Notes: generated from the sequence alone by a model not told the origin. Numbered from the stretch's first letter, positions 16,957 through 45,836 are shown. The stretch is 64,000 nt of DNA from an uncultured Nitrososphaerota archaeon (GCA_963799845.1 CAWCYI010000004.1:288001-352000), one strand, 5' to 3'. Made by a program: numbers and translations.

Positions 16957-16974
16957 ATTCTCACGAGTGATAAT
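16957..16974 (-). promoter_or_regulatory. 18-bp regulon palindrome for wHTH/3-TM operon
   Basis: ATTCTCA-cgag-TGATAAT, 11 bp upstream of TTATTAGA on minus strand. Confidence 0.75.
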
Positions 16975-16992
16975 GATCTGAAGGGGTAGAAA

Positions 16993-17008
16993 CCCGAACA
17001 GATTCGGG
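16993..17008. promoter_or_regulatory. Second palindrome CCCGAA-N4-TTCGGG
   Basis: Perfect inverted repeat cccgaa-caga-ttcggg; near-identical copy at 29871. Confidence 0.55.
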
Positions 17009-17021
17009 ATTTTCAAGAGTT

Positions 17022-17039
17022 GCTATCAATTTTGATGAT
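17022..17039 (+). promoter_or_regulatory. 18-bp regulon palindrome for 17096 gene
   Basis: GCTATCA-attt-TGATGAT + CGT, 11 bp to TTTAAGTA. Confidence 0.65.
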
Positions 17040-17095
17040 CGTCTCCCGGCTTTAAGTACCAATGCCCCCCAAATGACTCACAAGTGAAAAACTAA

Positions 17096-17671
17096 ATGCT
17101 AAAGTCTCAAGAACAAACTGTAAAGCAAGTACCCGTAACGACTAGCAGATGGGCAAGCAGATTTACCTGGGCAGCCGTGGTCCAGGGTCTGATCCTAACA
17201 ATCATCACGGTGCTCATCGTGGAGCCGCTCAGCTACTTCGGCATCAATTCGTACTACAGCCCGTCTAAAGTTATAGCGGGAGGCGGAGGAGGAACATGGC
17301 TGTTCACTGGCTACATTCTATATCTTACGGTAGGCGTTATCGCGGTCGCAGTCACTGCAATGTTCTACTTCTTCATCGAAGGAGTCAACGGCAAGGTGTA
17401 CCATGGTCTGACGAACTACCTCGCCTGGGGGCACTATATATTCATGAATGTGGGAGTCGCTGGTTCTATGCTCCTCATGATCTGGGGTGGTTATATGGCA
17501 GGTTATGCCGCAGCTCCAGTTGCCTCGGGAGGCCTGGGTTACACAGATCTACAAATCCACGTGAACTATCTCGGTCAGCTAGTCAACCCAATTGGCGGAT
17601 TCGTCCTTCTGGCAGCAGTCGGTGCAATCCTCGGAGGACTTGGATTCATACTCAGAAGCAGGATGAAGTAA
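17096..17671 (+). CDS. Multi-pass membrane protein of unknown function
   Basis: 4-5 hydrophobic helices; own TATA promoter. Confidence 0.75.
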   Translation: MLKSQEQTVKQVPVTTSRWASRFTWAAVVQGLILTIITVLIVEPLSYFGINSYYSPSKVIAGGGGGTWLFTGYILYLTVGVIAVAVTAMFYFFIEGVNGKVYHGLTNYLAWGHYIFMNVGVAGSMLLMIWGGYMAGYAAAPVASGGLGYTDLQIHVNYLGQLVNPIGGFVLLAAVGAILGGLGFILRSRMK

Positions 17672-17685
17672 TCATCGAAATCTAT

Positions 17686-17716
17686 GCGGGGATAAAATTC
17701 CCCCACCTATTTTTTA
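17686..17716 (+). terminator. Possible terminator (short hairpin + T-tract)
   Basis: gcggggat...attccccc followed by tatttttt. Confidence 0.35.
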
Positions 17717-17762
17717 TTCGGAGAAATAATTTTTAGAGAAATAAAATGGTGAAATTGGTAAA

Positions 17763-17987
17763 ATGAGAGCAAAGTACGCAACAGTCAAGATTCCACAAGA
17801 ACTCGCCATGAAGCTGGATGAGTTTGTCGTGGACTTGGGTTATAGAAGCAGGGCAGAAATTGTGAATGACGCTATCAGAAGGTTTATCGATGAAAGGAAA
17901 AGGTTGGATAATCCATCGGCAGTCAGCGAATCGGAAGTACCTACTCGGAATCTCAAACGGAATGAACCGATCAAGTTAACTCCATGA
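17763..17987 (+). CDS. CopG/ribbon-helix-helix regulator
   Basis: TVKIPQEL..KLDE....GYRSRAEIVNDAIRRF. Confidence 0.85.
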   Translation: MRAKYATVKIPQELAMKLDEFVVDLGYRSRAEIVNDAIRRFIDERKRLDNPSAVSESEVPTRNLKRNEPIKLTP

Positions 17988-18030
17988 GTTTAAGCTCGGT
18001 TAGGTTAAGTTGCAACGTTCTCCTTCAGTC

Positions 18031-18459
18031 ATGAAAGTTCTCGATGTCATGTCAACGGATCTTGTCACCAGTCAGGCTGATGAACCACTTAACGAAGCCG
18101 TGCATCGAATGCTGCAGCGAGATGTCGGGTGTATAATAGTAATGGATGATTCGGTTGTGGAGGGGATCATAACGAAGGGTGACGTGTTGAAGAAGGCATT
18201 TCTTCTCGATCTGGATGCTCGGGAAGTTTCTTCGAAAAAGGTGATGTCGAAACCGGTAATAGCAATCGACCCGGACTCGACGCTTGAAGAAGCTTCGCGA
18301 ATGATGACTAGAAACAACGTGTCGAAGCTTGCGGTCGTCAAGGGAAAGAAACTTGTCGGTGTTGTGACTTCCAGCGATATCATCAGGGCGGAGCCAATGC
18401 AGGTGGGCTATCTTCAGGAACTCATCAAAGCAAGGTTTGTGCCCCACGACATCGGCTAA
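18031..18459 (+). CDS. CBS-pair protein
   Basis: VLDVM...GIITKGD, VM...VGVVTSSD. Confidence 0.9.
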   Translation: MKVLDVMSTDLVTSQADEPLNEAVHRMLQRDVGCIIVMDDSVVEGIITKGDVLKKAFLLDLDAREVSSKKVMSKPVIAIDPDSTLEEASRMMTRNNVSKLAVVKGKKLVGVVTSSDIIRAEPMQVGYLQELIKARFVPHDIG

Positions 18460-18485
18460 ATCCCTGGGGCCGATGATGATCGTTC

Positions 18486-18644
18486 ATGAAAGTAGATTCG
18501 AAGAGGGCGAAAGCTGCTGGAAGAAAATGTCCCAAGTGTGGCACGGTTATGATAAACGGTGTTTGTCCTAAATGCAAATACTCGGCAAAGACAGCCTACA
18601 AAAGTAGACGGGAAGCTAAGGAATTCACTTTTGCTGGCGACTGA
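18486..18644 (+). CDS. 52-aa zinc-finger microprotein (not in ORF track)
   Basis: MKVDSKRAKAAGRKCPKCGTVMINGVCPKCKYSAKTAYKSRREAKEFTFAGD; two CPKC motifs. Confidence 0.7.
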   Translation: MKVDSKRAKAAGRKCPKCGTVMINGVCPKCKYSAKTAYKSRREAKEFTFAGD

Positions 18645-18843
18645 AATGTTATTCTCTTTAGGAGAATCATTAGTAACTTCCGTTCAACACAAATTCAATA
18701 TTGTTAATTGTTGATTACTTCTCTTCAGAGTTTCTCGACTATGACGAAAAGAATCGTGAAAAAGAGACACATCGAGCAATCTGTAGTCTCCCACAGAAAG
18801 TCGAAAAAGTGCCAATTCAGAGCGAAGGCTTTGCCTTCCCCCA

Positions 18844-19682
18844 TCAAGAAGTGCGGGTTGTCTCGGCTATATTCAACTGGCCTAATTCCCACGTCTTCAC
18901 GGTCAGATCCCAAGGAGTTACAATACCTCGATCTGTAAGAGCACAGTCATTGTCCTTCAGCGACAGCAATTCGGCTGCATCTGAGATTTGTTTTCTGCCG
19001 TCGATCCAGGGGACTTCTCCAAGTTCGATATCATCCAATGTTCCATCAAGCAATCTGTTCTGAAACCTCAAGATGTGGCCGAGTCTCTCTTGTTGGAACA
19101 AGTACGCAAGAATCTGTTTGTCAGAGATCACAGTCCTTGTACCTGAAATCTGGACACGTCTGAATTTTCGACGCCCAATCTCCTTCAAGGATACGTCGAG
19201 CTTGTTCCCCGAGAAAGTTGGAAGACAGGGAATGTCACTATATCATCGACTACAAGCTTCGACGAAAAAATTCCAAGATGATACAATTTCAAAAGATCTT
19301 TTACAGAAATTTTTTCATACTGACTTTTTTTTCCATGAACCAGGGCAAATCCAAAAGTGGATGATTGGAAGACATGCAGTAGAGAAAGAATGTCATCGTT
19401 CGAACTGATCGTTCCGGCCAGAAGGGAACTCTCGAGACAAGGAGAATTGAGAAACGAAGCGTAATTATGCGGATTCATTTGCATCATTTTCGAAACAATT
19501 GAATATCCGGAAATAACCAGTGGCCTTGCCTCCGAGGATCCCTGATTCGATTCTATTAACAGAAGGTCGAAATCATTTTCACGAAGTTTTTGAATCGCCT
19601 CTAGGATTATTGTCCTGCCGGATATAGTCTTGAGAGGTCTCACATCCAGACGTGGAAGGATTTCTTCTAGGTTAGCTGCCAA
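18844..19682 (-). CDS. Divergent 4xCBS-like protein (apparent frameshift at ~19200)
   Basis: ORFs 19185-19682 and 18844-19188 join by adding one base; aligns end-to-end with 30782-31588 (GYS, FGFA.V, TPWDL). Confidence 0.75.
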
Positions 19683-19696
19683 TTTATTTATTCATC

Positions 19697-20114
19697 CTAT
19701 GGAAATATTTGTTCGCCGGACTCTGCATCCTTCACAGTAATCGCTTTGTAGGGACACATCTGTGCTGATACGATTATCTTTTCGCTTGGAACTTCTCTGT
19801 CCTGGACATCCTTCATCCCAAGTGGTTCGTCCGCATTTCTTCCAAAGCCCAAGTTGGAGTAATCCAGTGCGAATACTTCCGGTGCAAGTGCCACGCAGAC
19901 TTTCAACTCCCATGCATTTCCCCTGCTCGATGCTCAAAATTAGCCTGCGATTGTCCCGAGTCACGATTTCCTTCTCCCCTCTTCTTTGCAAGCTATCCAG
20001 AGTGCCGGAAACTAGACGAATTATCACGTCAGAATAATCTTCGTTTTGTTTCTTAGCCCTTTGTATCGTATCGTATGCTCTTGCAGAGATTTCTATCGTT
20101 ATTTCGTCAGTCAT
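19697..20114 (-). CDS. RHH/VapB-like DNA-binding domain fused to monocluster ferredoxin (apparent frameshift at ~19899)
   Basis: TIEISARAYDTI..AKKQNEDYSDVIIRL + KCMGVESCVALAPEVF...AQMCPYKAI after removing one base. Confidence 0.75.
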
Positions 20115-20162
20115 GAAACTCAAACAGTTAAGCACAGATTATGATAATAAAGAGCCACCACG

Positions 20163-20180
20163 ATTACCAAGTTTGGTTTT
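20163..20180 (-). promoter_or_regulatory. 18-bp regulon palindrome for RHH-ferredoxin/CBS operon
   Basis: ATTACCA-agtt-TGGTTTT; CGT then 11 bp to TTTATTAT on minus strand. Confidence 0.55.
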
Positions 20181-20373
20181 GAGACTTCTCTTACAGACTG
20201 GAGCTCTGAGAGTCAGCGATTCGCGATCCCCAGTTTTGACGGTAAGAATTGTGAATCCAGGTTGAGGGTACTCAACGGCCGGGCCCCCTCGAGACAATCG
20301 TCAAACTAGGATTCTAATCTTCGAGAGTAAGGAGGTGTCGTTTGAAATGGAGGTTCTCCGCTTGTAATTCCAC

Positions 20374-21306
20374 TCACGACATTGTCGTTCCTGCGTTACC
20401 ATCCAGTGCTTGCCTGCCTTGCTCCAGGGATGCAATTATCGCCTTCTCTCCCCCTGCTTCCAAAAAATTGATGGCGGCTTGAACTTTGGGTCCCATGCTC
20501 CCGGGAGGAAACTGCCCCTCTGTCAAGTATTTTCTTGCCTCCTCGATTGTTAGCGAATCAAGCTGCTTTTCATTAGTTTGACCATAATTTAGTGCAAGTT
20601 TCTCAACATCAGTCAGGATCAGTAGCACATCGACTTTCATCAACGAAGCAATCAAACTGGCGCTCAGGTCTTTATCGATCACTGCTTCAACTCCCACCAG
20701 GCTTCCGTCATCATTTCTTACCACTGGGATACCTCCTCCCCCTGAATGAATAATCATGAATCCTTCGTCGAACATTTTCCGAATTACCTTGAGTTCGACA
20801 ATCGATTTTGGTTTTGGTGATGGAACAACCCTGCGATACCCCTTGTTACTATCGTTCACGACGATCCACCCCTTCTCACTTGCGAGGTTTCTCGCCTCTG
20901 TTTCTGAATAGTAAGGGCCGATTGGTTTGGTCGGATTTGCAAATGCCGAGTCGTTCCTGTCTACTATTGTTTGCGTGAGGATCGTGACCATTGGAATGTC
21001 CAACCCCGCCTTCCTTAGTTCATTGTCTAGGGACTGTTGCAACATATAACCGATCATGCCCTGACTTTCTGCCCCACAAACATCGAGAGGCATTGGCGGG
21101 AGAACATTTTTCGCGAGATCGTCTCTTAGTAGGATATCTCCGACTTGGGGGCCGTTTCCGTGAGTGATTGTTAACAGTGCTCCGTGAAGAAACAAATCTA
21201 CAAGTTGAGAAGATGTGTGACGTATGTTGGCAAACTGCTGTTCGGAAGTTCCAGTTTCTTTCCGTTGAAGAATCGCGTTTCCCCCGAGAGCTACAAGAAC
21301 TTTCAT
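20374..21306 (-). CDS. arcC: Carbamate kinase
   Basis: VALGGNAIL, THGNGPQVG, RRVVPSP, VIDKD, GSMGPK. Confidence 0.96.
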   Translation of the reverse strand: MKVLVALGGNAILQRKETGTSEQQFANIRHTSSQLVDLFLHGALLTITHGNGPQVGDILLRDDLAKNVLPPMPLDVCGAESQGMIGYMLQQSLDNELRKAGLDIPMVTILTQTIVDRNDSAFANPTKPIGPYYSETEARNLASEKGWIVVNDSNKGYRRVVPSPKPKSIVELKVIRKMFDEGFMIIHSGGGGIPVVRNDDGSLVGVEAVIDKDLSASLIASLMKVDVLLILTDVEKLALNYGQTNEKQLDSLTIEEARKYLTEGQFPPGSMGPKVQAAINFLEAGGEKAIIASLEQGRQALDGNAGTTMS

Positions 21307-21366
21307 CTGGCTAACCAAATCCTCACCTGAATACAATTATAGTTTGGCAATTTAAGCTGAGAGAAC

Positions 21367-21384
21367 GTTTTCAAATTCGAAAAT
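21367..21384 (-). promoter_or_regulatory. 18-bp regulon palindrome for arcC
   Basis: GTTTTCA-aatt-CGAAAAT, 11 bp from TTAAATT on minus strand. Confidence 0.6.
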
Positions 21385-21432
21385 GACCGATCTCTGTTTC
21401 GATACTGATACCTCTTTATCTATAACCTCGAA

Positions 21433-21450
21433 ATTATCAAAATTGGCGAT
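21433..21450 (+). promoter_or_regulatory. 18-bp regulon palindrome for CBS-HPF gene
   Basis: ATTATCA-aaat-TGGCGAT, 11 bp to CTTAAATA. Confidence 0.6.
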
Positions 21451-21493
21451 CATCCTCGTTTCTTAAATAGCTCAATCGGCAACTAATTCCAAA

Positions 21494-22648
21494 ATGTCCT
21501 ATTCACATTCAATCGATCATCTCAGAGTTTCAGATTTTGTTGAACCTGCTTCTATGTTTAATTCATCTGATTCTGTATCGCATTTGATCGGAACTTTGAA
21601 GAGATCCAAGGGGTATGAGGGTTTCGTCGAGGAAACCAGTCGGACTTGCACGATAACTCTCCGCGAAATTCTAGATGTTGAGAGCGCAGATACGACTAAG
21701 GTCTCCGCACTAATGCTTCCAGTACCGAGATTGAACGCAGGCGATTCGATTATCTTTGCAGCAAAACTGATGTTCGAAAACAAATTGAGGGCGCTCCCAG
21801 TCTACGAAAATGGGAAACTGCAGGGAAAAGTAACTTCGCCATCGATTGTCAGAAGAATGATAGAATCAAATCCTCCCGAAGAAACGCTCCCAAAGATTAT
21901 GACTCCGGGTCCTATTTGCCTTGTAGATTCGGATGCAATGTCGAAAGCGAGGAGTATAATGATAAGAAGAAAAATCGACCAGCTCCCGATTCTCAGAGCG
22001 GGAGAACTGAGCGGCGTAATAACCTCGGAAGATATCGTCTTCAGCTTTCTTTCTGCTCCGCTGGATAGAGATTCGAAGGGAGGGCGAGAAGACAGCCGAT
22101 TTAGTGCCCCGGTGTCAACTCTTGCCTCCGTCGAAACGACATCTAACGACATCAAGGACTCACTTTCAAATGTCGCTCAGGAGATGCTGAGGATGCGGAC
22201 GAACTATTCAGTAATATTGGGCGGTGGATCTGTCAAAGGCATAGTTACGTTTAGAGACTTTCTGAAGTTGCTGCCGATCAGTGGAGCAAATGAGGACGTA
22301 CCAGTCTCGATCATTGGACTGCCCGACAATCCACTAGAAGCAGAACTGGTCACGTCGAAATTCACCGCTTCGGTGCGCATGCTGCAGAGGATGGATCCCA
22401 CCGTGAGCGAGGTCAGAGCCGTAATCAAGAACAAGGAGGTTAATTCGAATACGATACTGCATCAGGTACAGGTCTTCATCGACAGTTCAAAGTGGCACGA
22501 AAGCTATGAAGCTTCCGGGTACGACATCTCGAAAGTATTCGCCGAGATTGATACATGGATTAAGCGAATAGCCTCAAAGCATGACTTCAAACCTGACCGG
22601 GAAAGAATGTCATTCAAGACTGTCAGGCACTCTGACGGAAACGTCTAA
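21494..22648 (+). CDS. 4xCBS protein with C-terminal HPF/RaiA-like domain (putative Hib-type ribosome hibernation factor)
   Basis: Four CBS repeats then a ~110-aa beta-alpha-beta-beta-beta-alpha-like domain (VSIIGLP...EASGYDISKVFAEI). Confidence 0.7.
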   Translation: MSYSHSIDHLRVSDFVEPASMFNSSDSVSHLIGTLKRSKGYEGFVEETSRTCTITLREILDVESADTTKVSALMLPVPRLNAGDSIIFAAKLMFENKLRALPVYENGKLQGKVTSPSIVRRMIESNPPEETLPKIMTPGPICLVDSDAMSKARSIMIRRKIDQLPILRAGELSGVITSEDIVFSFLSAPLDRDSKGGREDSRFSAPVSTLASVETTSNDIKDSLSNVAQEMLRMRTNYSVILGGGSVKGIVTFRDFLKLLPISGANEDVPVSIIGLPDNPLEAELVTSKFTASVRMLQRMDPTVSEVRAVIKNKEVNSNTILHQVQVFIDSSKWHESYEASGYDISKVFAEIDTWIKRIASKHDFKPDRERMSFKTVRHSDGNV

Positions 22649-24561: not shown

Positions 24562-24643
24562 TCTCTAAGTCTCATCTGGGACTGAAAAATATACTAAAAA
24601 TTATTATTTTTTCGGCTCTCTTCCACCTAAAAAGATGACCTCG

Positions 24644-24661
24644 ATTTTCAAAAACAGTAAT
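24644..24661 (-). promoter_or_regulatory. 18-bp regulon palindrome for pyk (weaker)
   Basis: ATTTTCA-aaaa-CAGTAAT, ~11 bp from TTTTTAG on minus strand. Confidence 0.45.
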
Positions 24662-24671
24662 CACCCGAATA

Positions 24672-24689
24672 ATTCTCAGTGTTGGGAAT
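24672..24689 (+). promoter_or_regulatory. 18-bp regulon palindrome for APC-arcB-arcA operon
   Basis: ATTCTCA-gtgt-TGGGAAT + CGT, 11 bp to ATAAATAT. Confidence 0.75.
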
Positions 24690-24744
24690 CGTCTCCATGG
24701 ATAAATATCGTCAGAGTGGTCTTTCAAAGTCAGGTCACTGAGAA

Positions 24745-29245: not shown

Positions 29246-29263
29246 ATCTCCATGATTGAAAAC
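29246..29263 (-). promoter_or_regulatory. 18-bp regulon palindrome for USP
   Basis: ATCTCCA-tgat-TGAAAAC, 11 bp from TTTAATTA on minus strand. Confidence 0.55.
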
Positions 29264-29370: not shown

Positions 29371-29826
29371 TTAAAGAATAGGAGCTATTTTCTGGAGAGC
29401 TGAGGTACCGATCGCTGCCGACTCTTGCAATTTTTCAGGGATTGCTTGGCTAGCTTCTTTCGGTCTCAATGTTGACCAGATGTCACTCAACTTATCCGCT
29501 GGATCTCTATTGGAAACAAGATCTACCTTCAGTTCTCCTGATTCTAGCTGAATAGTCGCGTTCCTGAATGACGACTTGTAACACACGAATTTCTTACCGT
29601 CATCATGAATTATTGTTCTATCCGGTCTGACGATACCGTATTCCAGCATCTCGTGAATCCTTCGATAACAAGTGCTGACAGGAATGTGCTGTTCTTTGCT
29701 GATCTCCTCGATTGGAAGGGAATTTGAGATGATCGTAAGAACAATTTTTCGAGAATATTCGTCCGCGAGTACCTTTATGACTTCAAGGGCCTTTTCCTCG
29801 TCAGAGACGAGCAATGAATGATTCAC
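29371..29826 (-). CDS. Winged-helix (ArsR-like) regulator, paralog 2
   Basis: LADEYSRKI...IPVSTCYRRIHEM...DDGKKF..YKSSFR, closely similar to 16531-16887. Confidence 0.88.
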   Translation of the reverse strand: MNHSLLVSDEEKALEVIKVLADEYSRKIVLTIISNSLPIEEISKEQHIPVSTCYRRIHEMLEYGIVRPDRTIIHDDGKKFVCYKSSFRNATIQLESGELKVDLVSNRDPADKLSDIWSTLRPKEASQAIPEKLQESAAIGTSALQKIAPIL

Positions 29827-30045: not shown

Positions 30046-30678
30046 TTAGGACTTTTCAAAATATCCGGTTATTATCCTTCTTTCCGCCCTTCTCAGGATC
30101 TCGGATGCGGTGCTTGGGGAAATCCCGACTGCTTTGGACAATTCTTCCGTAGAAATACGCTTTGGATAATCATAGTACCCAAGTTCCAGTGCAGATTTCA
30201 TGACGCGCTCCTGCTTGGGAGTCAAAGCCCTAGTTGGGCTCATCTTCGCAATCTCTCCAATCTTGTAGATAACCCCATTCTCGTGCAAAGATTGAAGAAA
30301 ATTTGGAATGCCCTCACCACTCATGAAAAGCTTGTACGTCATCTGGCAATTACTCTCGGTCACGGCAGGGCCGACAAAGTATCCGCTCTGGGATTGCATG
30401 ATCAAAAAGCATACTAGGCAGTCCTTGCTGGTTACTGCGCCTACTAGTCTATTCGGTCCCACGCTCGCAAGATCGCATTCCGTAACATCAGGCAGGTTAC
30501 CCAAATCCTTTCTCAGATGTTCCGCGGTAACTTTCTCGGATGTAATCTCGACAAAGTGAGTGATGTTCCGTTCAGAGTCCTGCGACTTCATACTTAGTAC
30601 CCTTACGATTGCAGAATCATTGCGGCAGATGTTATCGATCCAGCTTTCTGGGTTGACGCTGAACTGTAGCTGGATCAC
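30046..30678 (-). CDS. HTH-10 (Bat/DmsR/NarO-like) transcription regulator with Cys-rich N-domain
   Basis: LTPKQERV...ALELGYYDYPKR...ELS...GISPSTASEILRRAE; five Cys including CLVC in the N-domain. Confidence 0.88.
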   Translation of the reverse strand: MIQLQFSVNPESWIDNICRNDSAIVRVLSMKSQDSERNITHFVEITSEKVTAEHLRKDLGNLPDVTECDLASVGPNRLVGAVTSKDCLVCFLIMQSQSGYFVGPAVTESNCQMTYKLFMSGEGIPNFLQSLHENGVIYKIGEIAKMSPTRALTPKQERVMKSALELGYYDYPKRISTEELSKAVGISPSTASEILRRAERRIITGYFEKS

Positions 30679-32636: not shown

Positions 32637-32654
32637 ATTCCCACGGTTGAGAAC
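32637..32654 (-). promoter_or_regulatory. 18-bp regulon palindrome for CBS/CBS-ZnF operon
   Basis: ATTCCCA-cggt-TGAGAAC; CGT and 11 bp to ATAAATAC on minus strand. Confidence 0.75.
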
Positions 32655-33527: not shown

Positions 33528-33545
33528 ATTCTCACAAAAGAAAAT
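33528..33545 (+). promoter_or_regulatory. 18-bp regulon palindrome for 33586 gene
   Basis: ATTCTCA-caaa-AGAAAAT + CGT, 10-11 bp to TTTATTT. Confidence 0.65.
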
Positions 33546-34455: not shown

Positions 34456-34473
34456 ATTCTCAACGGTGATAAC
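34456..34473 (-). promoter_or_regulatory. 18-bp regulon palindrome for CBS gene
   Basis: ATTCTCA-acgg-TGATAAC; CGT and 10 bp to TTTATCT on minus strand. Confidence 0.75.
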
Positions 34474-38057: not shown

Positions 38058-38354
38058 TCAGACGACGAGGCCTGCGATAAGGAGGACCACGATGAAGGAG
38101 GCTCCCGCGATTATCGGGATCCTTCCGAACCGATCATGCTCCATTATTGATCTTACCAAGTATGAAATCATGAAGAAGGCGACGAGGTCGATGGCTAGGT
38201 AGACTGCAAAGCTTGACTCGACACTGCCCCCGATTGGATTGAGGATCCACAAGAAATAAACCGTGAGAAGCTCGAGAAGTATAAGCAACGCGACAATCCG
38301 GACTGCAAGCTTCTCGTACGCGTCAGAGATGCTACCACTGCTCACTTCTTCCAC
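38058..38354 (-). CDS. Small 3-TM protein, last gene of Rieske/cyt b operon
   Basis: Overlaps the cytochrome b stop; three helices. Confidence 0.7.
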   Translation of the reverse strand: MEEVSSGSISDAYEKLAVRIVALLILLELLTVYFLWILNPIGGSVESSFAVYLAIDLVAFFMISYLVRSIMEHDRFGRIPIIAGASFIVVLLIAGLVV

Positions 38355-39874: not shown

Positions 39875-39875
39875 G

Positions 39876-40673
39876 TTAGGACACCAATGTCCCGCCTTGC
39901 AGATCGTATAGCACATTATCGCTGCCCGTGTGGTAGCCGAAGATGGTTGGAGGTGACATTCCCGTTGCGTAGATGTCTCCGGTCGAGTCGTCGTAGCTCA
40001 GCATCACTTGGGGTACCGGCCTCGGAGCTGGTCCTCCCAGCACCTTCGCGCTGTTTGCCAAGTCGTAAGAGGAACCGTGACAGCAGCAGTAGCCCACAGG
40101 CCCGGATGCCTTGTATGTGTTATCGCATCCTGGTGATGCACCCGGCGCCACGAAACCGTAGATGCAACCCAAGTGCTGGCAGATCTGACTGAAAGCGACG
40201 ATGTCGCCGTCGGGGCCTACCCCGTTCAGTGCCTTCTCGCCTAGCTTCACGAGAAGATTCGGCGTCTCTTCAAGCGGATAGTTGAACGTGACGGTACTAC
40301 CTCCCGTCAAGTCACTAATGTTTGCGACCTTGATTGTGGGAAAAGGACCTGATGACGATGATGATGTCGTGGTCGAAGACTCTGAAGCGGTGCTCTCAGT
40401 GCTTTCTGTGCTGCTCTCGCTCGTCGGCTGTGATGCTACAGTCGAAGTGACGGTCACAGTTGCGGTCTCAATCTGAGTCTGGGTGGGGATGACCTCAGCA
40501 GGCAGCGCTTCAGACGGGCTCACTATAGAACGTGTTACTGATCCTATTCCCAGAGCGGCCAAGACCACCCCAAAGGTTAGGCCGACCTTAAGAAAATTCC
40601 TTCGGGAGTTTTCCTTTGCATCTGTGCGGGCATTGTCTGGAGCACTCTCACCGCCATCGTTCTCTTGTGGCAT
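39876..40673 (-). CDS. Rieske iron-sulfur subunit (SoxL-like), Tat signal
   Basis: SRRNFLK, CQHLGC, CCCHGSSY, GPAPRP. Confidence 0.92.
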   Translation of the reverse strand: MPQENDGGESAPDNARTDAKENSRRNFLKVGLTFGVVLAALGIGSVTRSIVSPSEALPAEVIPTQTQIETATVTVTSTVASQPTSESSTESTESTASESSTTTSSSSSGPFPTIKVANISDLTGGSTVTFNYPLEETPNLLVKLGEKALNGVGPDGDIVAFSQICQHLGCIYGFVAPGASPGCDNTYKASGPVGYCCCHGSSYDLANSAKVLGGPAPRPVPQVMLSYDDSTGDIYATGMSPPTIFGYHTGSDNVLYDLQGGTLVS

Positions 40674-40712
40674 TGTATCACCCGCTCACGGAGTTCTACA
40701 GCAGTGATATGC

Positions 40713-42243
40713 TTACCGCCCCGCGCTTTCACGAATCGGTCTTGCAACCATTCCTGCTATCAGGCCCACAATTAGGGTTACCACTGCTGTGATGAGGGCC
40801 AGGTCGAAGGATAATCCCCCACTACTAGAGGATGTCGTGGAGGTGATTGTCGTTGACACGGGAGCAGCTGTCGAGGTTACCGTTTGGGTGATGACTGACG
40901 CCGTACTCGTCTCGGTGACCGAGGCAGGTACTCGTCTGGGTGAATGACGCCGTACTCGTCTGCGTGACTGATACGGTCACGGTCGATGGAGAACTAGTTC
41001 CTGTTGCTGAACCCTTACCGGATGATATTTCCGTCACAGTTCCATTGTATGCGAGTTTAACGGTGGCGTCCATAGTGTTTCCACCTACCATCGTATTGTT
41101 GCCGTTGACGACTAAGACTCCAATGGCCTCGTTCTGGAAGGTGTTCCCCGTAATCACAGTATTCACGGCAGCAACTGGCCCTTCGCCGCCGACGATGACT
41201 CCTTCGAGGGTCGGGAGATATCCATCTCCGCTTATGACGTTGTTCAAGATGGCGTTGCCTGTAACGACATCGCCTGGCGCATTATTGTGAACTATTACTC
41301 CGCCTTCGCCGTTGTCGATGATGTTGTTGCCAATAACTGTGTTATTGATCGCGACGGTGTTGGGTGTGTCTGCTGCCACTATTATGCCGTTCTGGTTGTC
41401 GATGACAACGTTGTCGCTGACTACGTTATTCGAGACGCCCTCTCCCTTGTCGTACGAAGAGACCACAATGGCGCAGTGATTCGGTCTGTTGTTAATTATT
41501 GTATTGCCGCTGATAGTGTTGTTGTTTCCGGGGTTCGGTGTTCCAGTCGGGATGTTCGAGCCTGGGGCGGCTGTAGCATTCCAGGACGGGTCGATAGCTC
41601 CGTCATCAGTTATGCCCACCCCACCGTACAGATTGCCTACAATCGTGTTGCCGTCGATTGCAGAGTCCGATGTTCCCGCTAACTGGATGGCTTTGTCTTC
41701 GCCTAGGCCAGCTTGTATGTTTAGGCCGTTGTTAGAGGCGAAGTCGTTCTCCACTCTTACGTTGGAGCTGTCTTGGACGAAGATTCCGTGGTTGTTAGCA
41801 TTAATGGTCGCGAACCCTTCGACGACCGTGCCCGAGGCAGACTCGCCGACGACTACGATGCCGTTCGCCAGTCCCGTCGCGTTTATGATAGTGCTCAGTG
41901 GCATCCCATTCTCTGACATCAGGTCAATGGGTGTCGTGATGACTACCATTTCATTATACGTGCCGGGTTCGACGATTATAGTCGAAGCGTTTTTTGAGCT
42001 CGCGTAGAAGCTCGTCGCCTGAGCTACCGCGTGAGTAATGGTGGCGAAGGGGCTAGCAAACGAACCGGTGCCAGTAGTGTCACTACCCGTTGGGCTTACG
42101 TATAATACACTGCTGTTGTCCGTTGGTGCAGCCGCACTTACTGTCCGGCCAAGAAGAGCACCGGACGATAAGGCAAATAGGATGACCAAGCATGTCGCCG
42201 TGAACATTTTCGTACTCAAGGTGAAATTTGCATTCTGTTGCAT
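40713..42243 (-). CDS. Secreted right-handed beta-helix protein with S/T linker and C-terminal anchor (apparent frameshift ~40926)
   Basis: YVSPTGSD..G...PFATI, NNT/GN PbH repeats. Removing one base restores TQTSTAS repeats and a TM helix ending at TAA 40713. Confidence 0.8.
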
Positions 42244-42284: not shown

Positions 42285-42302
42285 ATTCTCAAAAATGATA
42301 AT
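42285..42302 (-). promoter_or_regulatory. 18-bp regulon palindrome for beta-helix/Rieske/cyt b operon
   Basis: ATTCTCA-aaaa-TGATAAT; CGT and 10 bp to TTTATGA on minus strand. Confidence 0.78.
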
Positions 42303-42345: not shown

Positions 42346-42363
42346 ATTTTCAAAAGAGAGAAT
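42346..42363 (+). promoter_or_regulatory. 18-bp regulon palindrome for hsp20
   Basis: ATTTTCA-aaag-AGAGAAT + CG, 11 bp to TTATAAGA. Confidence 0.7.
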
Positions 42364-42413: not shown

Positions 42414-42935
42414 ATGGCAAAGAAAGATAGAGCCGAAAAAGAATCAAACAAGAATAATCGGATTGCAGTTTGGAGTCCGGATGAATACGCTCGTGAAATG
42501 GATCGAGTCTTTTCAGACTTTGAGCAACGGATGAACAAATCTTTCCCCGGTTCATTCGGCGGTGGTTTTCCATTCCCGAGATGGAGATCCTTTGAATTAC
42601 CTGAAGTGAGGCGCCCGTTCGCCGATTTGATAGATGCGGGTTCGGAGTATCGGGCCCGCGTGGAAGTACCGGGAATTCCAAAAGAGAAACTCAACATCTC
42701 AGTAACGCCAAAAGAAATCAAGATTGAGGGAGAGGCAGAGTCCAATTTTGACGAAAAGAAGGAGGGCTTCGTCAGGAGGGAAAGGACTTACTCGAAGGTT
42801 AGGAGAGAGTTGGCCTTCCCTGAGGACGTGATCGCGGAAAAAGCAGAAGCGACGGTTAAAGACGGGGTACTCGAAGTTAGGGTCCCAAAAAAGGTCCCGA
42901 GTGAGGCGAAAACTCACAAAGTTCAAATAAAGTGA
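42414..42935 (+). CDS. hsp20: Small heat shock protein Hsp20
   Basis: Alpha-crystallin domain: EVPGI.KE, RERTY, A..KDGVLEV.VPK, VQI. Confidence 0.94.
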   Translation: MAKKDRAEKESNKNNRIAVWSPDEYAREMDRVFSDFEQRMNKSFPGSFGGGFPFPRWRSFELPEVRRPFADLIDAGSEYRARVEVPGIPKEKLNISVTPKEIKIEGEAESNFDEKKEGFVRRERTYSKVRRELAFPEDVIAEKAEATVKDGVLEVRVPKKVPSEAKTHKVQIK

Positions 42936-43026
42936 GACGTCCCTCACTATCGTCCGGAACTCGGTCTAGAAAACTTCTAACAGTGGCCGAGATCAACTTT
43001 TTCGGATTACTCAATTGTTAGACACT

Positions 43027-43500
43027 ATGCTAATTCAGGTTGAAGTTCCCGACGGGACAAACGTGATTATCGGTCAATCTCATTTTATCAAGACAACAGA
43101 AGACATCCATGAAGCCCTGGTAAGTTCTGTTCCGGGGATTCAATTTGGACTTGCATTCTGTGAGTCATCGGGTCCAAGATTAGTACGCGTCGAGGGGACC
43201 AGCGAAGAGCTAAGGAAACTCGCCATTAAGAATGTTGTTGAAATCGGTGCTGGTCATTCCTTCATCATCTACATCAAGGGAGCTTTTCCAATCAACGTAT
43301 TGAACGCTCTGAAAAATCTGGGAGAGGTGTGCCAAATCTTCTGTGCTACTGCAAATCCGGTTCAGGTTATTGTGGCTCAGTCAGAGCAGGGCAGGGGAAT
43401 TTTGGGGGTCATTGATGGTGGCTCTCCGATGGGTGTTGAATTAGAACAGGATGTCAAGGAGCGACGGGCTTTTCTGAGGAAAATCGGGTACAAACTCTGA
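43027..43500 (+). CDS. Adenosine-specific kinase family (DUF355)
   Basis: NVIIGQSHFIKT.ED, AFCESSG, CATANP, GRGILGVIDG. Confidence 0.9.
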   Translation: MLIQVEVPDGTNVIIGQSHFIKTTEDIHEALVSSVPGIQFGLAFCESSGPRLVRVEGTSEELRKLAIKNVVEIGAGHSFIIYIKGAFPINVLNALKNLGEVCQIFCATANPVQVIVAQSEQGRGILGVIDGGSPMGVELEQDVKERRAFLRKIGYKL

Positions 43501-43558
43501 CCAATCTGATTGATCCTGCCCAATCCTTTAATTCTGCACTAAATTCCTCTTCTTTGAA

Positions 43559-43987
43559 GTGAGCAAATTGCCAGCCTCTCTTATGGCTAAGGACGTGATG
43601 GATTCGAAAGTCGTAATGATGGATGCCTCGGCTATCGTGAATGATGCGATAAAGAAAATGGTATCTTCGGATACCTGGTCGATCTTGATCGAAAAGAATG
43701 GCCTTCCAATCGGTGTTCTGACAGAACGGGATATATTCAGGCGATGCCTAGGAATCGGGAATTCCCCTGACAAGATGATGGTTGAAGAAATCATGAGTTC
43801 TCCCATCGTTTCGGTAGCTCCGGACGATCGGATGGGAACGGTCATGGACACGATGGTTCAGAAGAATATTCGCCGTGTATTCGTAATAGAGAATGGCAAA
43901 GTTATTGGAAGGATTACTCAGACGAAGTTGTTTGATGATGCAGTCAATCTGATGGAGAGCCTTTCTTCCTTGAGGTACCAGATGTGA
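43559..43987 (+). CDS. CBS-pair protein
   Basis: GVLTERD, IMSSP, IRRVFV. Confidence 0.9.
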   Translation: MSKLPASLMAKDVMDSKVVMMDASAIVNDAIKKMVSSDTWSILIEKNGLPIGVLTERDIFRRCLGIGNSPDKMMVEEIMSSPIVSVAPDDRMGTVMDTMVQKNIRRVFVIENGKVIGRITQTKLFDDAVNLMESLSSLRYQM

Positions 43988-44106
43988 GCGCTTCAGTGTA
44001 TTCTGCCCTAGATCATTCTTCTAGTGAGATTTGATCTATCCCGCGTTATCGATTGTCGAAACTGCGACCGAAATTGGTTCAGGGATTTTTTCACCGGTGC
44101 GAAATT

Positions 44107-44608
44107 TCACTTTATGACAAGGACGTTGCAAGGGGCATGAAGTACTACCCCGCTCGAAACGCTTCCCAGCAGAAGCTTCTTGAAACCTCCCAGACCACGG
44201 GTGCCCATTACGATCAGGTCGATTTTTTCTCCGGTTGCCATATCGGTTATAGTCTCCACGATGGTCGAAGCTGTCCTCAGCACCTCTGATCTTGTACTAA
44301 CACCAAGCTGGTTTGCATTCAGCTACCATTTCTCCGACTGACTTTCTTGCATCCTGGTCCATGTAATCATAGTATTCATCAAATGTTTTCCGGGGCACAT
44401 CAAGGCCACCGACAAATCGAGGCATCGGTATGACACTGAGAACGATCAATTCCGCTCCGTATTCTTTTGCAATTCGTGCAGCAACCTCGGCTGCCTTCTT
44501 GGACATCGGTGAACCGTCGATCGGGACGAGAATCTTGGAAGGAGGAAAGGCCGATTCGAATTTTTCTTGCGATGATTCTGCGCTCAAAGTAGAATCCAGG
44601 TGCTCCAT
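44107..44608 (-). CDS. Universal stress protein (apparent frameshift ~44300-44322)
   Basis: KILVPIDGS in one frame; DLIVMGTRGLGGFKKLLLGSVS...CNVLVIK-TGA(44107) in the next. Confidence 0.85.
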
Positions 44609-44644
44609 TTTACGTGTGAGGATCACTAATAAGAGAATTAGACC

Positions 44645-44662
44645 ATTATCAATCTTGGGAAA
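44645..44662 (-). promoter_or_regulatory. 18-bp regulon palindrome for USP (minus)
   Basis: ATTATCA-atct-TGGGAAA, 11-12 bp from TTATTAG. Confidence 0.65.
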
Positions 44663-44702
44663 CTTTCTCAGACACCAAGTTTTTGTCCTGGCGAGAGAAG
44701 CT

Positions 44703-44720
44703 GCTCCTACGGTTGAAAAT
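44703..44720 (+). promoter_or_regulatory. 18-bp regulon palindrome for USP (plus)
   Basis: GCTCCTA-cggt-TGAAAAT + CGT, 11 bp to TTTAACTA. Confidence 0.6.
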
Positions 44721-44762
44721 CGTATACTAAGTTTAACTACCATATGCTCTTGAAACCGGCGC

Positions 44763-45207
44763 ATGGATCAAATTCTCGTGGCGGTTGACGGCTCCAAACA
44801 TTCCTTCAATATCGTGGACAAAGGTTGCGAACAGGCAAAGGCATTCTCTTCTTCCATTTTGCTGGTTTATGTGATGAAAGAGTATGTAGAGGAACCGGAA
44901 GGAATAGTGTCCTATGAAAAGTCTGAGGGTTATCAAGACGCGTTTTCCGATTATCTACAGCAACTGGGGGACCAAATAACGGGCAAGCTCAGCTGAGAAG
45001 ATCCAACAAGCGGGCATCCCTTTCCGCACAATTACTCCTTCAGGTAATGTGGCCGATGAAATTCTTAATGTCGCAAACGTGGAGAAGGTCAGAATGATCG
45101 TGATAGGAATCAAAGGTCTACATGGTCTGGCCAAAATTAGATCGCTCGGCAGCGTGACTAGAAGGGTCGCCGAAAACGCAGAATGTCCCGTACTTGTGGT
45201 GCCCTGA
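44763..45207 (+). CDS. Universal stress protein (apparent +1 frameshift at ~44990)
   Basis: ILVAVDGS then, after AGCTCAGCT, AEKIQ...IVIGIKGLHG..SLGSVTRRV..CPVLVVP-TGA. Confidence 0.85.
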
Positions 45208-45254
45208 CTAGATTCAATATCGTTTCTACAACAAGCTTCAGAAACGAGTTTCTA

Positions 45255-45740
45255 TCAGGTGCGACGCTCAAGAATCATGTACCACGTTCCTAGCGCCTTA
45301 GCACACAATCTCCCATCTCCATCTCGTATTTCAGCTTCGGCAACGGAAACATTCCGTCCGTGTCGGAGGACTCTACCTGTTGCCGTGAAGGGTTCCTTTC
45401 TTAGTGGTTCGAGAAAATTGATCTTGAGTTCCAGAGTGACTTGATCTATTCCGGTGTTATTCGTCATAACTGCTATTCCACCGACGTTATCTAGTGCAAA
45501 CGAGATTATTCCTCCATGAACTATCCCGCCGTGACGCGCAACTTCTTGACTGTAGGGAAAAGTCAGCTCCGCATAGCCGTCACCGACCTTCTTGACCGAG
45601 AACTTTGCTATAGAGAAAAGACCGCTCTCTCCCTGCAGGAACCTCTCCAGTTCGGATTCAACGCTCAGACCCTGGTTTCTCACAATTTCGAAGAGGCCCC
45701 TGAATCCACCAGAGCTCTTCAGCATTTCTTCGAAGCTCAT
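45255..45740 (-). CDS. PaaI-family hotdog thioesterase
   Basis: GIVHGG...LD, TLELKINFL.P. Confidence 0.9.
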   Translation of the reverse strand: MSFEEMLKSSGGFRGLFEIVRNQGLSVESELERFLQGESGLFSIAKFSVKKVGDGYAELTFPYSQEVARHGGIVHGGIISFALDNVGGIAVMTNNTGIDQVTLELKINFLEPLRKEPFTATGRVLRHGRNVSVAEAEIRDGDGRLCAKALGTWYMILERRT

Positions 45741-45818
45741 ATCTTCGGCAGGGAACGGTTTCTTTTCTTATTACATTAACGAATAGCCTCACTATTCCAA
45801 GAAGGCGCTTCCTTTCCG

Positions 45819-45836
45819 AATATCAAAAATGATAAT
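45819..45836 (+). promoter_or_regulatory. 18-bp regulon palindrome for small zinc-ribbon gene
   Basis: AATATCA-aaaa-TGATAAT + CGT, 11 bp to TTCAAATA. Confidence 0.7.

What the first reader, a model, noticed from the sequence alone, without database searches (positions are those of the whole stretch)
16957..45836. Undescribed archaeal activator regulon: 16 promoters share an 18-bp palindrome fixed 10-12 bp upstream of TATA
Seen: ATT(C/A/T)TCA-N4-TG(A/G)(G/T/A)AA(T/C)-like sites start at 16957, 17022, 20163, 21367, 21433, 24644, 24672, 29246, 32637, 33528, 34456, 42285, 42346, 44645, 44703 and 45819. Each is intergenic and 10-12 bp from a TATA-like hexamer facing the adjacent gene. The TATA-proximal side is usually followed by CG(T). 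Divergent gene pairs carry one site per promoter. The spacers are often pyrimidine-rich (cgtctcccggc, cgtagcctccc, cgtctcttcct), so they lack the purine-rich BRE seen at housekeeping promoters here (e.g. AAAGG-TTTAAA at tuf). I saw no such sites before 16 kb or after 46 kb. Established: archaeal activators such as Pyrococcus TFB-RF1 and Ptr2 bind just upstream of BRE/TATA and recruit TFB or TBP. Inference: one dimeric activator co-induces the island. I know of no described Nitrososphaerota regulon with this box.
Basis: partly seen in the sequence, partly recalled or inferred. Interest (0 to 1): 0.93.

Follow-up and report, generated by a model that had tools for sequence, protein, structure and literature searches.

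The report
Conserved stress-regulon promoter box in soil archaea
An 18-base palindrome sits at a fixed distance in front of the TATA box of dozens of stress and energy-metabolism genes in this soil archaeon and its relatives, marking an undescribed gene-control circuit whose likely regulator is encoded right beside it.

Summary
All 16 sites exist at the stated coordinates. Read toward the gene they are RTTMTCA-N4-TGAKAAT, usually followed by CGT, then 7-8 nt and a TATA box.

It is not chance. At 20 bits or more the genome gives 54 hits against 1-2 in Markov-3 simulations. The N4 spacing gives 23 exact matches against 1-2 for N3 or N5.

The box marks about 55-70 promoters across the 4.6-Mb genome, with a second large cluster. 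It recurs at 12-85 copies per genome in 9 of the 12 sampled genomes of the family, and in smaller sets in other families of the order.

The genes served are CBS-domain proteins, universal stress proteins, Hsp20, the arginine deiminase pathway, two carbamate kinases, oxamate carbamoyltransferase, an NrdG-like activase, flavodoxin and a Rieske/cytochrome b operon. This reads as a stress or energy-limitation programme.

The best regulator candidate is a small ArsR/Phr-like winged-helix family. Its four copies all lie inside or next to box clusters, and several orthologues carry the box in their own promoter.

Activation is inferred from position only. The trigger and the binding protein are unproven. 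I found no description in print.

The parts
16957..16974 (-). Box 1 (26.6 bits), serving the wHTH regulator candidate A
16531..16887 (-). Regulator candidate A: 118-aa ArsR/Phr-like winged-helix protein with the box in its own promoter
   Evidence: Pfam HTH_20 at 26 bits, below the cut-off of 27. Paralogues. Model and fold matches.
17022..17039 (+). Box 2, serving the 191-aa four-helix membrane protein
17096..17671 (+). 191-aa membrane protein with no Pfam family; a conserved neighbour of candidate A in other lineages
20163..20180 (-). Box 3, serving the RHH/VapB-like 147-aa protein (19692-20135)
21367..21384 (-). Box 4 (weak, 14.9 bits), serving carbamate kinase (20374-21336)
21433..21450 (+). 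Box 5, serving the 384-aa CBS-pair protein (21494-22648)
24644..24661 (-). Box 6 (16.2 bits), serving the 638-aa pyruvate-kinase-like protein (22645-24561)
24672..24689 (+). Box 7, serving amino-acid permease, ornithine carbamoyltransferase and arginine deiminase (24745-28709)
29246..29263 (-). Box 8, serving a universal stress protein (28720-29196)
29371..29826 (-). Regulator candidate B: 151-aa paralogue of A (49% identical); its own 220-bp upstream region has no box
30046..30678 (-). HTH_10 protein (210 aa, 5 Cys), a conserved neighbour of B; rival or upstream regulator
32637..32654 (-). Box 9, serving CBS proteins (32138-32578, then 31578-32126)
33528..33545 (+). Box 10, serving a 103-aa protein with no family (33586-33897)
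34456..34473 (-). Box 11, serving a CBS protein (33955-34407)
42285..42302 (-). Box 12 (26.8 bits), serving NosD-like beta-helix (40825-42243), Rieske (39876-40673), cytochrome b (38342-39916) and an 801-aa surface protein (35485-37890)
   Evidence: That these form one operon is inferred from same-strand packing.
42346..42363 (+). Box 13, serving Hsp20 (42414-42935) and an adenosine-kinase-family protein (43015-43500)
44645..44662 (-). Box 14, serving a 103-aa USP-like ORF (44297-44608)
   Evidence: Assigned to USP by BLAST cluster.
44703..44720 (+). Box 15, serving a 77-aa USP fragment (44763-44993)
45819..45836 (+). Box 16 (24.4 bits); only a 59-aa ORF (45893-46069) lies downstream, convergent with an M48 peptidase gene

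Best explanation
The box is the operator of a conserved stress / energy-limitation regulon in Nitrososphaerales archaea. This genome has no detectable amoA.

Shown:
- A 7-4-7 palindrome, RTTMTCA-N4-TGAKAAT, lies 10-13 nt upstream of the TATA box of about 55-70 promoters.
- In this family a one-sided CGT on the TATA side marks the direction of the promoter.
- The genes served include CBS-domain and universal stress proteins, Hsp20, two carbamate-kinase routes to ATP (arginine deiminase and oxamate carbamoyltransferase), an NrdG-like activase, flavodoxin, a flavocytochrome-type reductase and a Rieske/cytochrome b module.

Inferred:
- A dimer of a small ArsR/Phr-like winged-helix protein (window proteins A and B and their paralogues) binds the palindrome.
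- From a position just upstream of BRE/TATA it helps TBP/TFB to load, so that scattered promoters fire together.
- A sits in the regulon itself, which would give positive feedback. B lacks the box and may be the constitutive entry point.

Open: the trigger. Oxygen or energy limitation fits the gene content best. Heat or proteotoxic stress is the alternative.
For: Cis-element:
- Enrichment, strict N4 spacing, intergenic position and fixed distance to TATA are shown.
- Strict pattern in relatives: at least 13 matches against 0-2 reversed-control matches in 8 of the 12 family genomes; G002 has 10 against 0. The other three have 1 against 1 (G001), 2 against 0 (G005) and 2 against 2 (G008). G028, of another family, has 15.
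- Palindrome alone in relatives: 12-85 copies against 0-2 reversed controls in 9 of the 12 family genomes.
- The same palindrome-to-TATA offset holds in other lineages. 28 of 36 TATA-like starts fall at offsets 11-13 in 76 oriented hits from loci L087-L119. The G023 island shows the same peak.

Regulon content:
- An independent island in G023, a different family, has 10 of that genome's 12 matches within 50 kb. They serve 5 CBS proteins, 2 USPs, 2 PII proteins, Amt, thermosome and an amino-acid permease.

Regulator:
- All 4 genomic copies of the A/B family lie inside or beside box clusters. A and the C8 fragment are within about 130 bp of a site. B's gene end lies about 110 bp from box 8. The third paralogue is inside the second cluster, 3.4 kb from the nearest site.
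- Of the 30 homologue loci scanned, 9 have a palindrome of 14 bits or more within about 130 bp upstream of the homologue's gene: G000, G003, G007, G010, G012, G021, G025, G032 and G039.
- A MAG locus of 71% GC also has one 52 bp upstream.
- Sites of 16 bits or more occur at 1.19 per 10 kb in the 34 loci fetched around homologues (39 sites in 326,538 bp). This genome's simulations give about 0.06 per 10 kb.
- The residues that are invariant or 90% conserved in 19 homologues (P45, Y50, R51, R52) lie in or at the start of the predicted recognition helix, 46-59.
- The fold is wHTH plus a beta sheet and a C-terminal helix. The best matches are PH1932 and the heat-shock regulator Phr (TMq 0.65), followed by SmtB/HlyU.

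Activation: the site lies wholly upstream of TATA with a fixed phase. Passages of PMC4706686 state that upstream binding activates and downstream binding represses.

Weak expression hint: peat metatranscriptome contigs with 0 differences lie on two box-driven genes, 17099-17790 and 33876-34192.
Against: - No binding, transcription-start or expression experiment exists. Every step from 'site' to 'activator' is inference.
- A box in a regulator's own promoter shows regulon membership, not that this protein binds it.
- Of the 30 homologue loci scanned, 21 have no site directly upstream. One of these (G008) has no upstream sequence on its contig.
- The closest structural relative, Phr, is a repressor (passages of PMC10746257).
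- The homodimer prediction gave no verdict.
- The HTH_10 protein is also a conserved neighbour.
- G017 and G013 show palindrome counts above control but no A-family homologue. However, 5 of the 6 sampled sites in those two genomes lie inside open frames of 144-826 aa, so they may not be operators.
- Hsp20 genes in 5 genomes of other families (13 loci) lack a box directly upstream, so the chaperone part is not conserved.
- The functional theme is my reading of a mixed gene list. Among the outside-window first ORFs scanned, 9 of 38 had no family at all and about 5 more had only weak hits.
Confidence: 0.55

Rival explanations
1. Same box and same wHTH family, but the protein is a repressor, as Phr is. 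It would hold the promoters shut by blocking TFB/TBP access next to the BRE, and stress would release it.
For: - The best fold matches are Phr and PH1932. Phr is described as a negative regulator that recognises a palindrome (PMC10746257, passages).
- A wHTH dimer footprint could reach the CGT and part of the BRE.
- The box-bearing promoters have ordinary TATA boxes.
- In G025 and G039 the palindrome lies only about 6 nt from a TATA-like element of the regulator's own gene.
Against: - The palindrome never overlaps the TATA or the start region in this genome.
- For TrmBL1, upstream sites activate and downstream sites repress (PMC4706686, passages).
- The spacers are poorer in A and in purines than generic promoters: 41% against 50% purine. 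That fits promoters that need help.
Confidence: 0.25
2. The palindrome is bound by a different protein, such as the Cys-containing HTH_10 protein (30046-30678) or the RHH-like protein (19692-20135). The A/B wHTH proteins would then be only regulon members or partners.
For: - The HTH_10 gene lies next to a B-type gene in G000, G004, G006, G007 and G011.
- RHH-like genes lie on the same contigs.
- HTH_10 has 5 Cys while A has none. HTH_10 could therefore sense redox state and A could not.
Against: - No HTH_10 homologue at E of 1e-8 or better was found in G023, which has a clear box island with A-family genes. Homologues were found in G022, G024 and G038, which have no A-family match at E of 1e-5 or better and 0-1 strict-pattern matches.
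- The RHH protein was found in only 9 of the 40 relatives searched, and not in G023, G025 or G039.
- The HTH_10 paralogues in G000 are mostly not near sites.
Confidence: 0.2
3. The box plus CGT is an extended promoter element read directly by one of the many TFB paralogues, working like an alternative sigma factor, with no separate regulator.
For: - The genome has about 9 TFB-like genes (17 repeat matches).
- The one-sided CGT sits at a fixed distance from TATA.
Against: - A symmetric 7-4-7 palindrome centred about 20 bp upstream of TATA suits a dimer, not TFB. Placing the BRE directly beside TATA is general knowledge that I recalled, not a call result.
- No TFB gene lies inside a box cluster. 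The nearest, at C4:1462491, is 5-9 kb from single sites.
- The CGT is degenerate in G023 although the palindrome and spacing persist there.
Confidence: 0.05
4. The islands are integrated mobile elements, and the box is their own promoter signal.
For: Thaumarchaeal integrated elements are reported to carry many UspA, CBS, Zn-ribbon, RHH, multicopper oxidase, hemerythrin and PII genes (PMC6563490, passages and Table 1). That list resembles this regulon.
Against: - The window holds no tRNA.
- The only three integrase-family matches in the genome all lie far from the clusters.
- There is no marked GC break.
- Sites are scattered on 5 contigs and serve core metabolic genes.
Confidence: 0.05

Closest known systems
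TGM / TrmBL1 system of Thermococcales (TATCAC-N5-GTGATA)
   Same: A palindromic operator of a global regulator marking tens of promoters. Sites upstream of BRE/TATA activate (PMC4706686, passages). The half-site core TATCA/TGATA looks alike.
   Different: The spacing differs: TCA-N4-TGA here against TCAC-N5-GTGA. The N3 and N5 versions are not enriched here. All sites here are upstream and strictly phased, whereas the TGM lies at variable distances on either side. The candidate protein gives no TrmB family hit.
Phr heat-shock regulator of Pyrococcus furiosus, and PH1932
   Same: These are the best structural matches to candidate A. Phr recognises a palindrome, and its targets include hsp20 (PMC10746257, passages). 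PF1932 is reported there as a heat-induced Phr target.
   Different: Phr is about 200 aa and a repressor. A has 118 aa and 17-19% identity over the fold alignment, and its site lies upstream of TATA. No sequence-level PDB match was found.
ArsR/SmtB metal and redox sensors
   Same: Winged-helix fold, small size, and fold matches to SmtB, HlyU, CzrA, SqrR and BigR. Pfam HTH_20 is the only family hit.
   Different: A has no Cys and no His, so the usual metal or thiol sensing sites are missing. It has an extra beta sheet and C-terminal helix. HTH_20 scores below Pfam's cut-off (26 against 27 bits).
Archaeal upstream activators Ptr2, TFB-RF1, SurR and EarA (recalled, not read here)
   Same: They bind just upstream of BRE/TATA and recruit TBP or TFB.
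   Different: They belong to different protein families and use different motifs. To my recollection none has a regulon with so uniform a distance to TATA.

Membership tests
Archaeal upstream activating operator (activator site upstream of BRE/TATA) | Site lies wholly upstream of BRE/TATA of the gene served | tested here: met
   The palindrome ends 10-13 nt before the TATA start in the window, genome-wide and in other lineages.
Archaeal upstream activating operator (activator site upstream of BRE/TATA) | A specific protein binds the site and raises transcription | not testable with these tools
   No binding or transcription data. The homodimer prediction gave no verdict.
TGM / TrmB-family regulon | Consensus TATCAC-N5-GTGATA | tested here: not met
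   Spacing here is TCA-N4-TGA: 23 matches, against 1 for N5 and 2 for N3.
TGM / TrmB-family regulon | Regulator of the TrmB family | tested here: not met
   Candidates A and B hit only HTH_20, HTH_24 and IclR-type HTH models weakly. No NCBIfam hit for A.
Phr-type heat-shock regulator | Fold of Phr (wHTH plus a C-terminal dimerisation part) | tested here: inconclusive
   Foldseek E 2e-4 and TMq 0.65 over about 103 columns, but the target has about 198 aa and the query 118.
Phr-type heat-shock regulator | Operator at or downstream of the promoter, giving repression | tested here: not met
   All sites lie upstream of TATA. Repression itself is not testable here.
Phr-type heat-shock regulator | Controls hsp20 / chaperone genes | tested here: inconclusive
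   Hsp20 in this window and thermosome in G023 carry the box. 13 Hsp20 loci in 5 genomes of other families do not carry it directly upstream.
ArsR/SmtB family | Pfam/HMM membership | tested here: inconclusive
   HTH_20 scores 26.0 bits against a cut-off of 27 for A. Many homologues carry PF12840 in the precomputed column.
ArsR/SmtB family | Metal- or thiol-sensing Cys/His residues | tested here: not met
   A has 0 Cys and 0 His. B has 2 Cys and 4 His.
Integrated mobile element | Integrase and a tRNA or repeat border | tested here: not met
   No tRNA in the window. The three integrase-family matches lie elsewhere. Flanking repeats were not searched.

The most novel reading that the evidence does not exclude
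An ancient, order-wide Nitrososphaerales stress circuit. A new Phr/ArsR-like winged-helix family works with a conserved four-helix membrane partner that has two invariant histidines and may be a haem or redox sensor. It reads a strictly phased upstream operator. In large-genome heterotrophic soil and peat lineages the circuit has grown to about 70 promoters. There it would switch the cell to substrate-level ATP production (arginine and oxamate/carbamate-kinase routes) when oxygen or energy runs out. Ammonia oxidisers would keep a small core of CBS, USP, PII and Amt genes.
Probability: 0.3. Interest if true: 0.75.

Novelty: new member of a known kind. Interest (0 to 1): 0.6.

Why it matters
Almost nothing is known about gene regulation in Nitrososphaerota, and the non-ammonia-oxidising soil lineages are uncultured. 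A single, easily recognised operator that marks dozens of promoters gives three things:

- a computational way to list a whole stress or energy-limitation programme in any related genome or metatranscriptome;
- a specific, small candidate regulator to test by EMSA or DAP-seq without needing a culture;
- a very regular natural set of promoters for studying how an archaeal factor placed one fixed distance from TATA acts on TBP/TFB.

It also bears on ecology. It places arginine deiminase, which has been read as an acid-tolerance gene in related soil lineages (PMC10640624, passages), inside a co-regulated set with carbamate kinases and an anaerobic-type reductase activase. That points to survival of oxygen-poor periods in peat and soil.

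Tried and rejected
Tried without useful result:
- Homodimer prediction of candidate A gave no verdict (score 0.15, mark 0.42). It is not used either way.
- Exact 6-mer dyad enumeration ranks TTATCA-N4-TGATAA only 22nd (8 against 0.35 expected). The box is degenerate at position 4, and other repeat families dominate the list. It is not a good discovery method here.
- The generic-promoter BRE profile rests on only 75 crudely chosen promoters, so the BRE comparison is weak.
- amoA search: no match in a genome that is 86.7% complete, but the control rang in no reference genome. Absence is therefore not shown.
- PDB sequence search for A gave only two insignificant chance rows (E 0.85), which were ignored.
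- NCBIfam gave nothing for A.
- The Atlas and fold searches of the 191-aa membrane protein gave only weak leads to haem-copper oxidase or NOR subunit I (no Foldseek match at E of 0.001 or better).
- RNA contigs: most of 15001-35000 has no cover in the four peat RNA runs. Contigs cannot rank genes or show starts, so nothing is concluded from the uncovered parts, and co-expression could not be tested.

Considered and rejected:
- Hsp20 as a conserved regulon member, because 13 loci in 5 genomes of other families lack a box directly upstream.
- Palindrome counts in G017, G013 and G037 as evidence of operators, because 7 of the 9 sampled sites lie inside open frames of 144-826 aa.

Tools and literature:
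- Supplements of the papers were not opened. Dataset S3/S4 of PMC12974425 and the supplementary data of PMC10640624 may bear on which USP and CBS genes respond to stress.
- Literature searches that found no description of the box.
- Papers were seen only as passages through 'find': PMC10640624, PMC3379541, PMC6563490, PMC12974425, PMC10746257 and PMC4706686. All other papers were seen as search listings only.
- The names Ptr2, TFB-RF1, SurR, EarA, Bat, DmsR and NarO come from my recall and from no call. SurR and EarA also appear in passing in passages or abstracts I saw.

Full report
**What is there**

The window is G000:C4:288001-352000 of a 4.6-Mb, 9-contig, 47-48% GC genome. All 16 claimed sites exist. 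Turned toward the adjacent gene they align as (A/G)TTNTCA-N4-TG(A/G)NAAT. The next three bases are CGT in 10 of 16 sites, followed by 7-8 unconserved bases and a TATA-like hexamer. Five divergent gene pairs have one box per promoter.

A PWM built from the 16 sites finds nothing of 13 bits or more in the window outside 16.9-45.9 kb.

**Is it more than chance?**

Yes, on four counts.
- The exact pattern TCA-N4-TGANAATCGT occurs 23 times in the genome against 0.68 expected. With N5 it occurs once, with N3 twice, and reversed controls give none.
- PWM hits of 20 bits or more number 54, against 1, 2 and 1 in three third-order Markov genomes. At 18 bits or more there are 79, against 4, 9 and 9. An earlier simulation had an overflow warning and is superseded.
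- After merging the two strands of each palindrome there are 70 loci of 18 bits or more. 56 lie outside the window and so are independent of the training sites. 53 of those 56 lie outside crude ORFs of 150 aa or more, while only 37% of the genome does.
- The logo from the 70 loci is R-T-T-M-T-C-A-NNN-t-T-G-R-N-R-A-T, then C-G-T on the TATA side only. T/T/T/A peaks at columns 30-33. The distance to TATA is therefore fixed, and the CGT gives the symmetric box a direction.

**The regulon is genome-wide and conserved**

Sites lie on five contigs. There is a second dense cluster at C4:1,020,000-1,068,400 and smaller ones at C4:1.76-1.81 Mb, C6:475-482 kb and elsewhere.

Among 40 relatives the picture is graded.
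- Strict pattern with CGT: at least 13 matches against 0-2 reversed-control matches in 8 of the 12 genomes of the same family. G002 has 10 against 0. G001, G005 and G008 have 1-2. G028, of another family, has 15. The remaining genomes have 0-3.
- Palindrome alone with at most one mismatch: 50 against 1 in G000, and 12-85 in 9 of the 12 family genomes. Other families give 4-22 against 0-9 for controls, and 0-1 in five genomes.
- Some of these low counts are not operators. 7 of the 9 sampled sites in G017, G013 and G037 lie inside open frames of 144-826 aa.

G023, a complete 1.62-Mb genome of another family, is a clear case. 10 of its 12 matches fall within 50 kb. They show the same palindrome-3-8-TATA layout, although the CGT is degenerate there.

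In MAG loci of further lineages, TATA-like starts peak at offsets 11-13 after the palindrome. That accounts for 28 of the 36 starts between offsets 0 and 25, among 76 oriented hits.

**What the box serves**

In the window:
- the regulator candidate A;
- a 191-aa membrane protein;
- an RHH-like protein;
- carbamate kinase;
- a pyruvate-kinase-like protein;
- the permease / ornithine carbamoyltransferase / arginine deiminase operon;
- three CBS proteins and USPs;
- Hsp20 with an adenosine-kinase-family gene;
- a NosD-like / Rieske / cytochrome b gene string.

Elsewhere in the genome I predicted a first ORF for 69 of the 82 loci of 17 bits or more. 55 of the 69 lie outside the window, and I sent 38 of those 55 to Pfam. 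The other 17 were shorter than about 80 aa or fell into the CBS or USP BLAST clusters. The hits were:
- a flavocytochrome-type FAD reductase;
- oxamate carbamoyltransferase AllG, divergent from a second carbamate kinase;
- an NrdG-like radical-SAM activase;
- flavodoxin and a hemerythrin-like protein;
- alcohol and short-chain dehydrogenases;
- a cupredoxin / multicopper protein;
- ABC transport parts;
- an Lrp/AsnC regulator and a receiver-domain protein;
- VKOR, an F420H2-quinone-reductase-like protein, and several families of unknown function.

9 of the 38 had no family at all. BLAST clustering adds three more CBS and two more USP genes.

The second cluster also holds AllH, a CoA-ligase, a xanthine-dehydrogenase-type molybdoenzyme, ribonucleotide reductase and NikR/NicO. 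In G023 the box serves 5 CBS proteins, 2 USPs, 2 PII proteins, Amt, thermosome, an amino-acid permease and phosphoribosyltransferases.

The shared core is CBS plus USP. My reading is a stress or energy-limitation programme. This lineage has added substrate-level ATP routes and anaerobic-type functions. That reading is an inference from annotation.

**Who binds it**

The window protein A (118 aa) and its paralogue B (151 aa, 49% identical) have two further copies in the genome. One lies inside the second cluster. The other is a fragment about 110 bp from site C8:72200. A has the best-scoring box of the window in its own promoter. B's 220-bp upstream region has none.

Evidence from relatives:
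- The family is found in 29 of the 41 genomes searched.
- Of the 30 homologue loci scanned, 9 have a palindrome of 14 bits or more within about 130 bp upstream of the gene: G000, G003, G007, G010, G012, G021, G025, G032 and G039. The other 21 do not, and one of them (G008) has no upstream sequence on its contig.
- In G020, G035, G023 (twice) and at B in G000, the regulator gene is directly followed by a box promoter.
- Around the 34 homologue loci from named MAGs, sites of 16 bits or more occur at 1.19 per 10 kb. The simulations give about 0.06. One of these sites lies 52 bp upstream of the homologue in a contig of 71% GC.
- In 7 scanned MAG loci labelled Bathyarchaeia (L097, L098, L101, L103, L107, L108, L109), a conserved box-TATA lies directly upstream of a CBS gene about 1 kb from the homologue.
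- The invariant or nearly invariant residues P45, Y50, R51 and R52 lie in or at the start of the predicted recognition helix.

The AlphaFold model (pLDDT 84.7) is a winged helix followed by two more strands and a C-terminal helix. Its best PDB matches are PH1932 and the Pyrococcus heat-shock regulator Phr, then SmtB/HlyU-type ArsR proteins. There is no sequence-level PDB hit and no NCBIfam hit. Homologues carry only generic names.

The rival regulators fit less well.
- The HTH_10 protein is a conserved neighbour of B-type genes. It was not found in G023, yet it is present in G022, G024 and G038, which have no A-family match at E of 1e-5 or better and 0-1 strict-pattern matches.
- The RHH-like protein was found in only 9 of 40 relatives.
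- No TFB paralogue lies in a cluster.
- Integrases and tRNAs are absent from the island.

**A conserved partner**

The 191-aa four-helix membrane protein, divergent from A, lies next to an A homologue in G003, G009, G020, G035 and a further MAG. It has three copies in G000 and two invariant histidines. It belongs to clusters of hypothetical proteins whose recorded members are mostly Nitrososphaerota, with only weak likeness to haem-copper oxidase subunit I. It may feed a signal to the regulator. This is speculation.

**How it most likely works**

The position of the site is shown. It lies entirely upstream of TATA, one fixed distance away. For TrmBL1, passages of PMC4706686 state that such upstream sites activate and downstream ones repress. 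I therefore infer recruitment of TBP/TFB by a dimer on the palindrome, with the CGT-side half-site facing the basal factors.

The spacer is somewhat poorer in purines than generic promoters, 41% against 50%. That gives mild support to the idea that these promoters need help.

A repressor mechanism cannot be excluded, because Phr is a negative regulator (PMC10746257, passages).

**The trigger is open**

Gene content points to oxygen or energy limitation. On the other hand, in Nitrosopumilus maritimus the USP, CBS and Hsp20 proteins were reported to appear only at the highest growth temperature and not under ammonia starvation (PMC12974425, passages). The fold relatives also belong to a heat-shock network. 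Against a conserved heat-shock role, 13 Hsp20 loci in 5 genomes of other families lack a box directly upstream.

**Expression**

Four peat metatranscriptome runs hold contigs that match two box-driven genes without any difference, at 17099-17790 and 33876-34192. This shows presence in RNA libraries only.

**Novelty**

Six full-text searches found no description of the box. In kind it is an upstream operator of an archaeal regulon, which is a known kind. The motif, the regulon, the candidate regulator family and the very uniform phasing are new.

**Limits**

- There are no experiments behind any of this.
- The other genomes could be searched by pattern only.
- Gene calls are crude.

Noticed in passing
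window 17096-17671 (+); also G000 C8:48719-49276 and C3:43932-44501: A 191-aa four-helix membrane protein with no Pfam family. It has three copies at 87-100% identity and two invariant His. It lies next to the wHTH regulator homologue in at least five other genomes. It is also the part of the stretch best covered by peat RNA-library contigs.
   Followed up: partly
G000 genome-wide: Other over-represented exact dyads: TTTACT-AGTAAA occurs 40 times (0.32 expected), and AGAGCT-N7-AGCTCT / AGCTCT-N11-AGAGCT occur 36 times each (0.6 expected). These probably belong to another repeated element or operator family.
   Followed up: no
G000 C4:1,020,603-1,068,633 (loci L018-L020): The second box cluster encodes what looks like an allantoin/oxalurate-type route: AllG, AllH, a CoA-ligase, carbamate kinase and a xanthine-dehydrogenase-type molybdoenzyme. 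It also encodes ribonucleotide reductase, NikR/NicO and a third paralogue of the wHTH protein.
   Followed up: partly
window 29371-30678 (-): The gene pair of HTH_10 protein (5 Cys) and wHTH paralogue B is conserved in G004, G006, G007 and G011. RHH-like genes lie on the same contigs. This suggests a small regulatory gene cluster inside the islands.
   Followed up: partly
window 44297-44993 and 45819-46069: Boxes 14 and 15 serve short USP-like ORFs (103 aa, and a 77-aa fragment matching only the first third of the USP model). Box 16 has only a 59-aa ORF and points into the 3' end of an M48 peptidase gene on the other strand. These could be decayed genes, a small RNA or an antisense transcript.
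   Followed up: no
locus L102 (MAG contig, GC 0.71), position 978: A homologue of the wHTH protein (45% identity) in a very GC-rich genome has GTTCTCGGTGGTGGGAAT-CGT 52 bp upstream, so the half-site core is kept against the base composition.
   Followed up: partly
G023:C1:1,385,000-1,434,000 (loci L078-L080): A complete small genome of another family has its own box island. The island holds Amt, two PII genes, thermosome, CBS and USP genes and two wHTH homologues.
   Followed up: partly
window 35485-42243 (-): A string of NosD-like beta-helix protein, Rieske protein, cytochrome b and an 801-aa protein with InlB B-repeat lies behind one box. It may be an alternative membrane electron-transfer module.
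   Followed up: no
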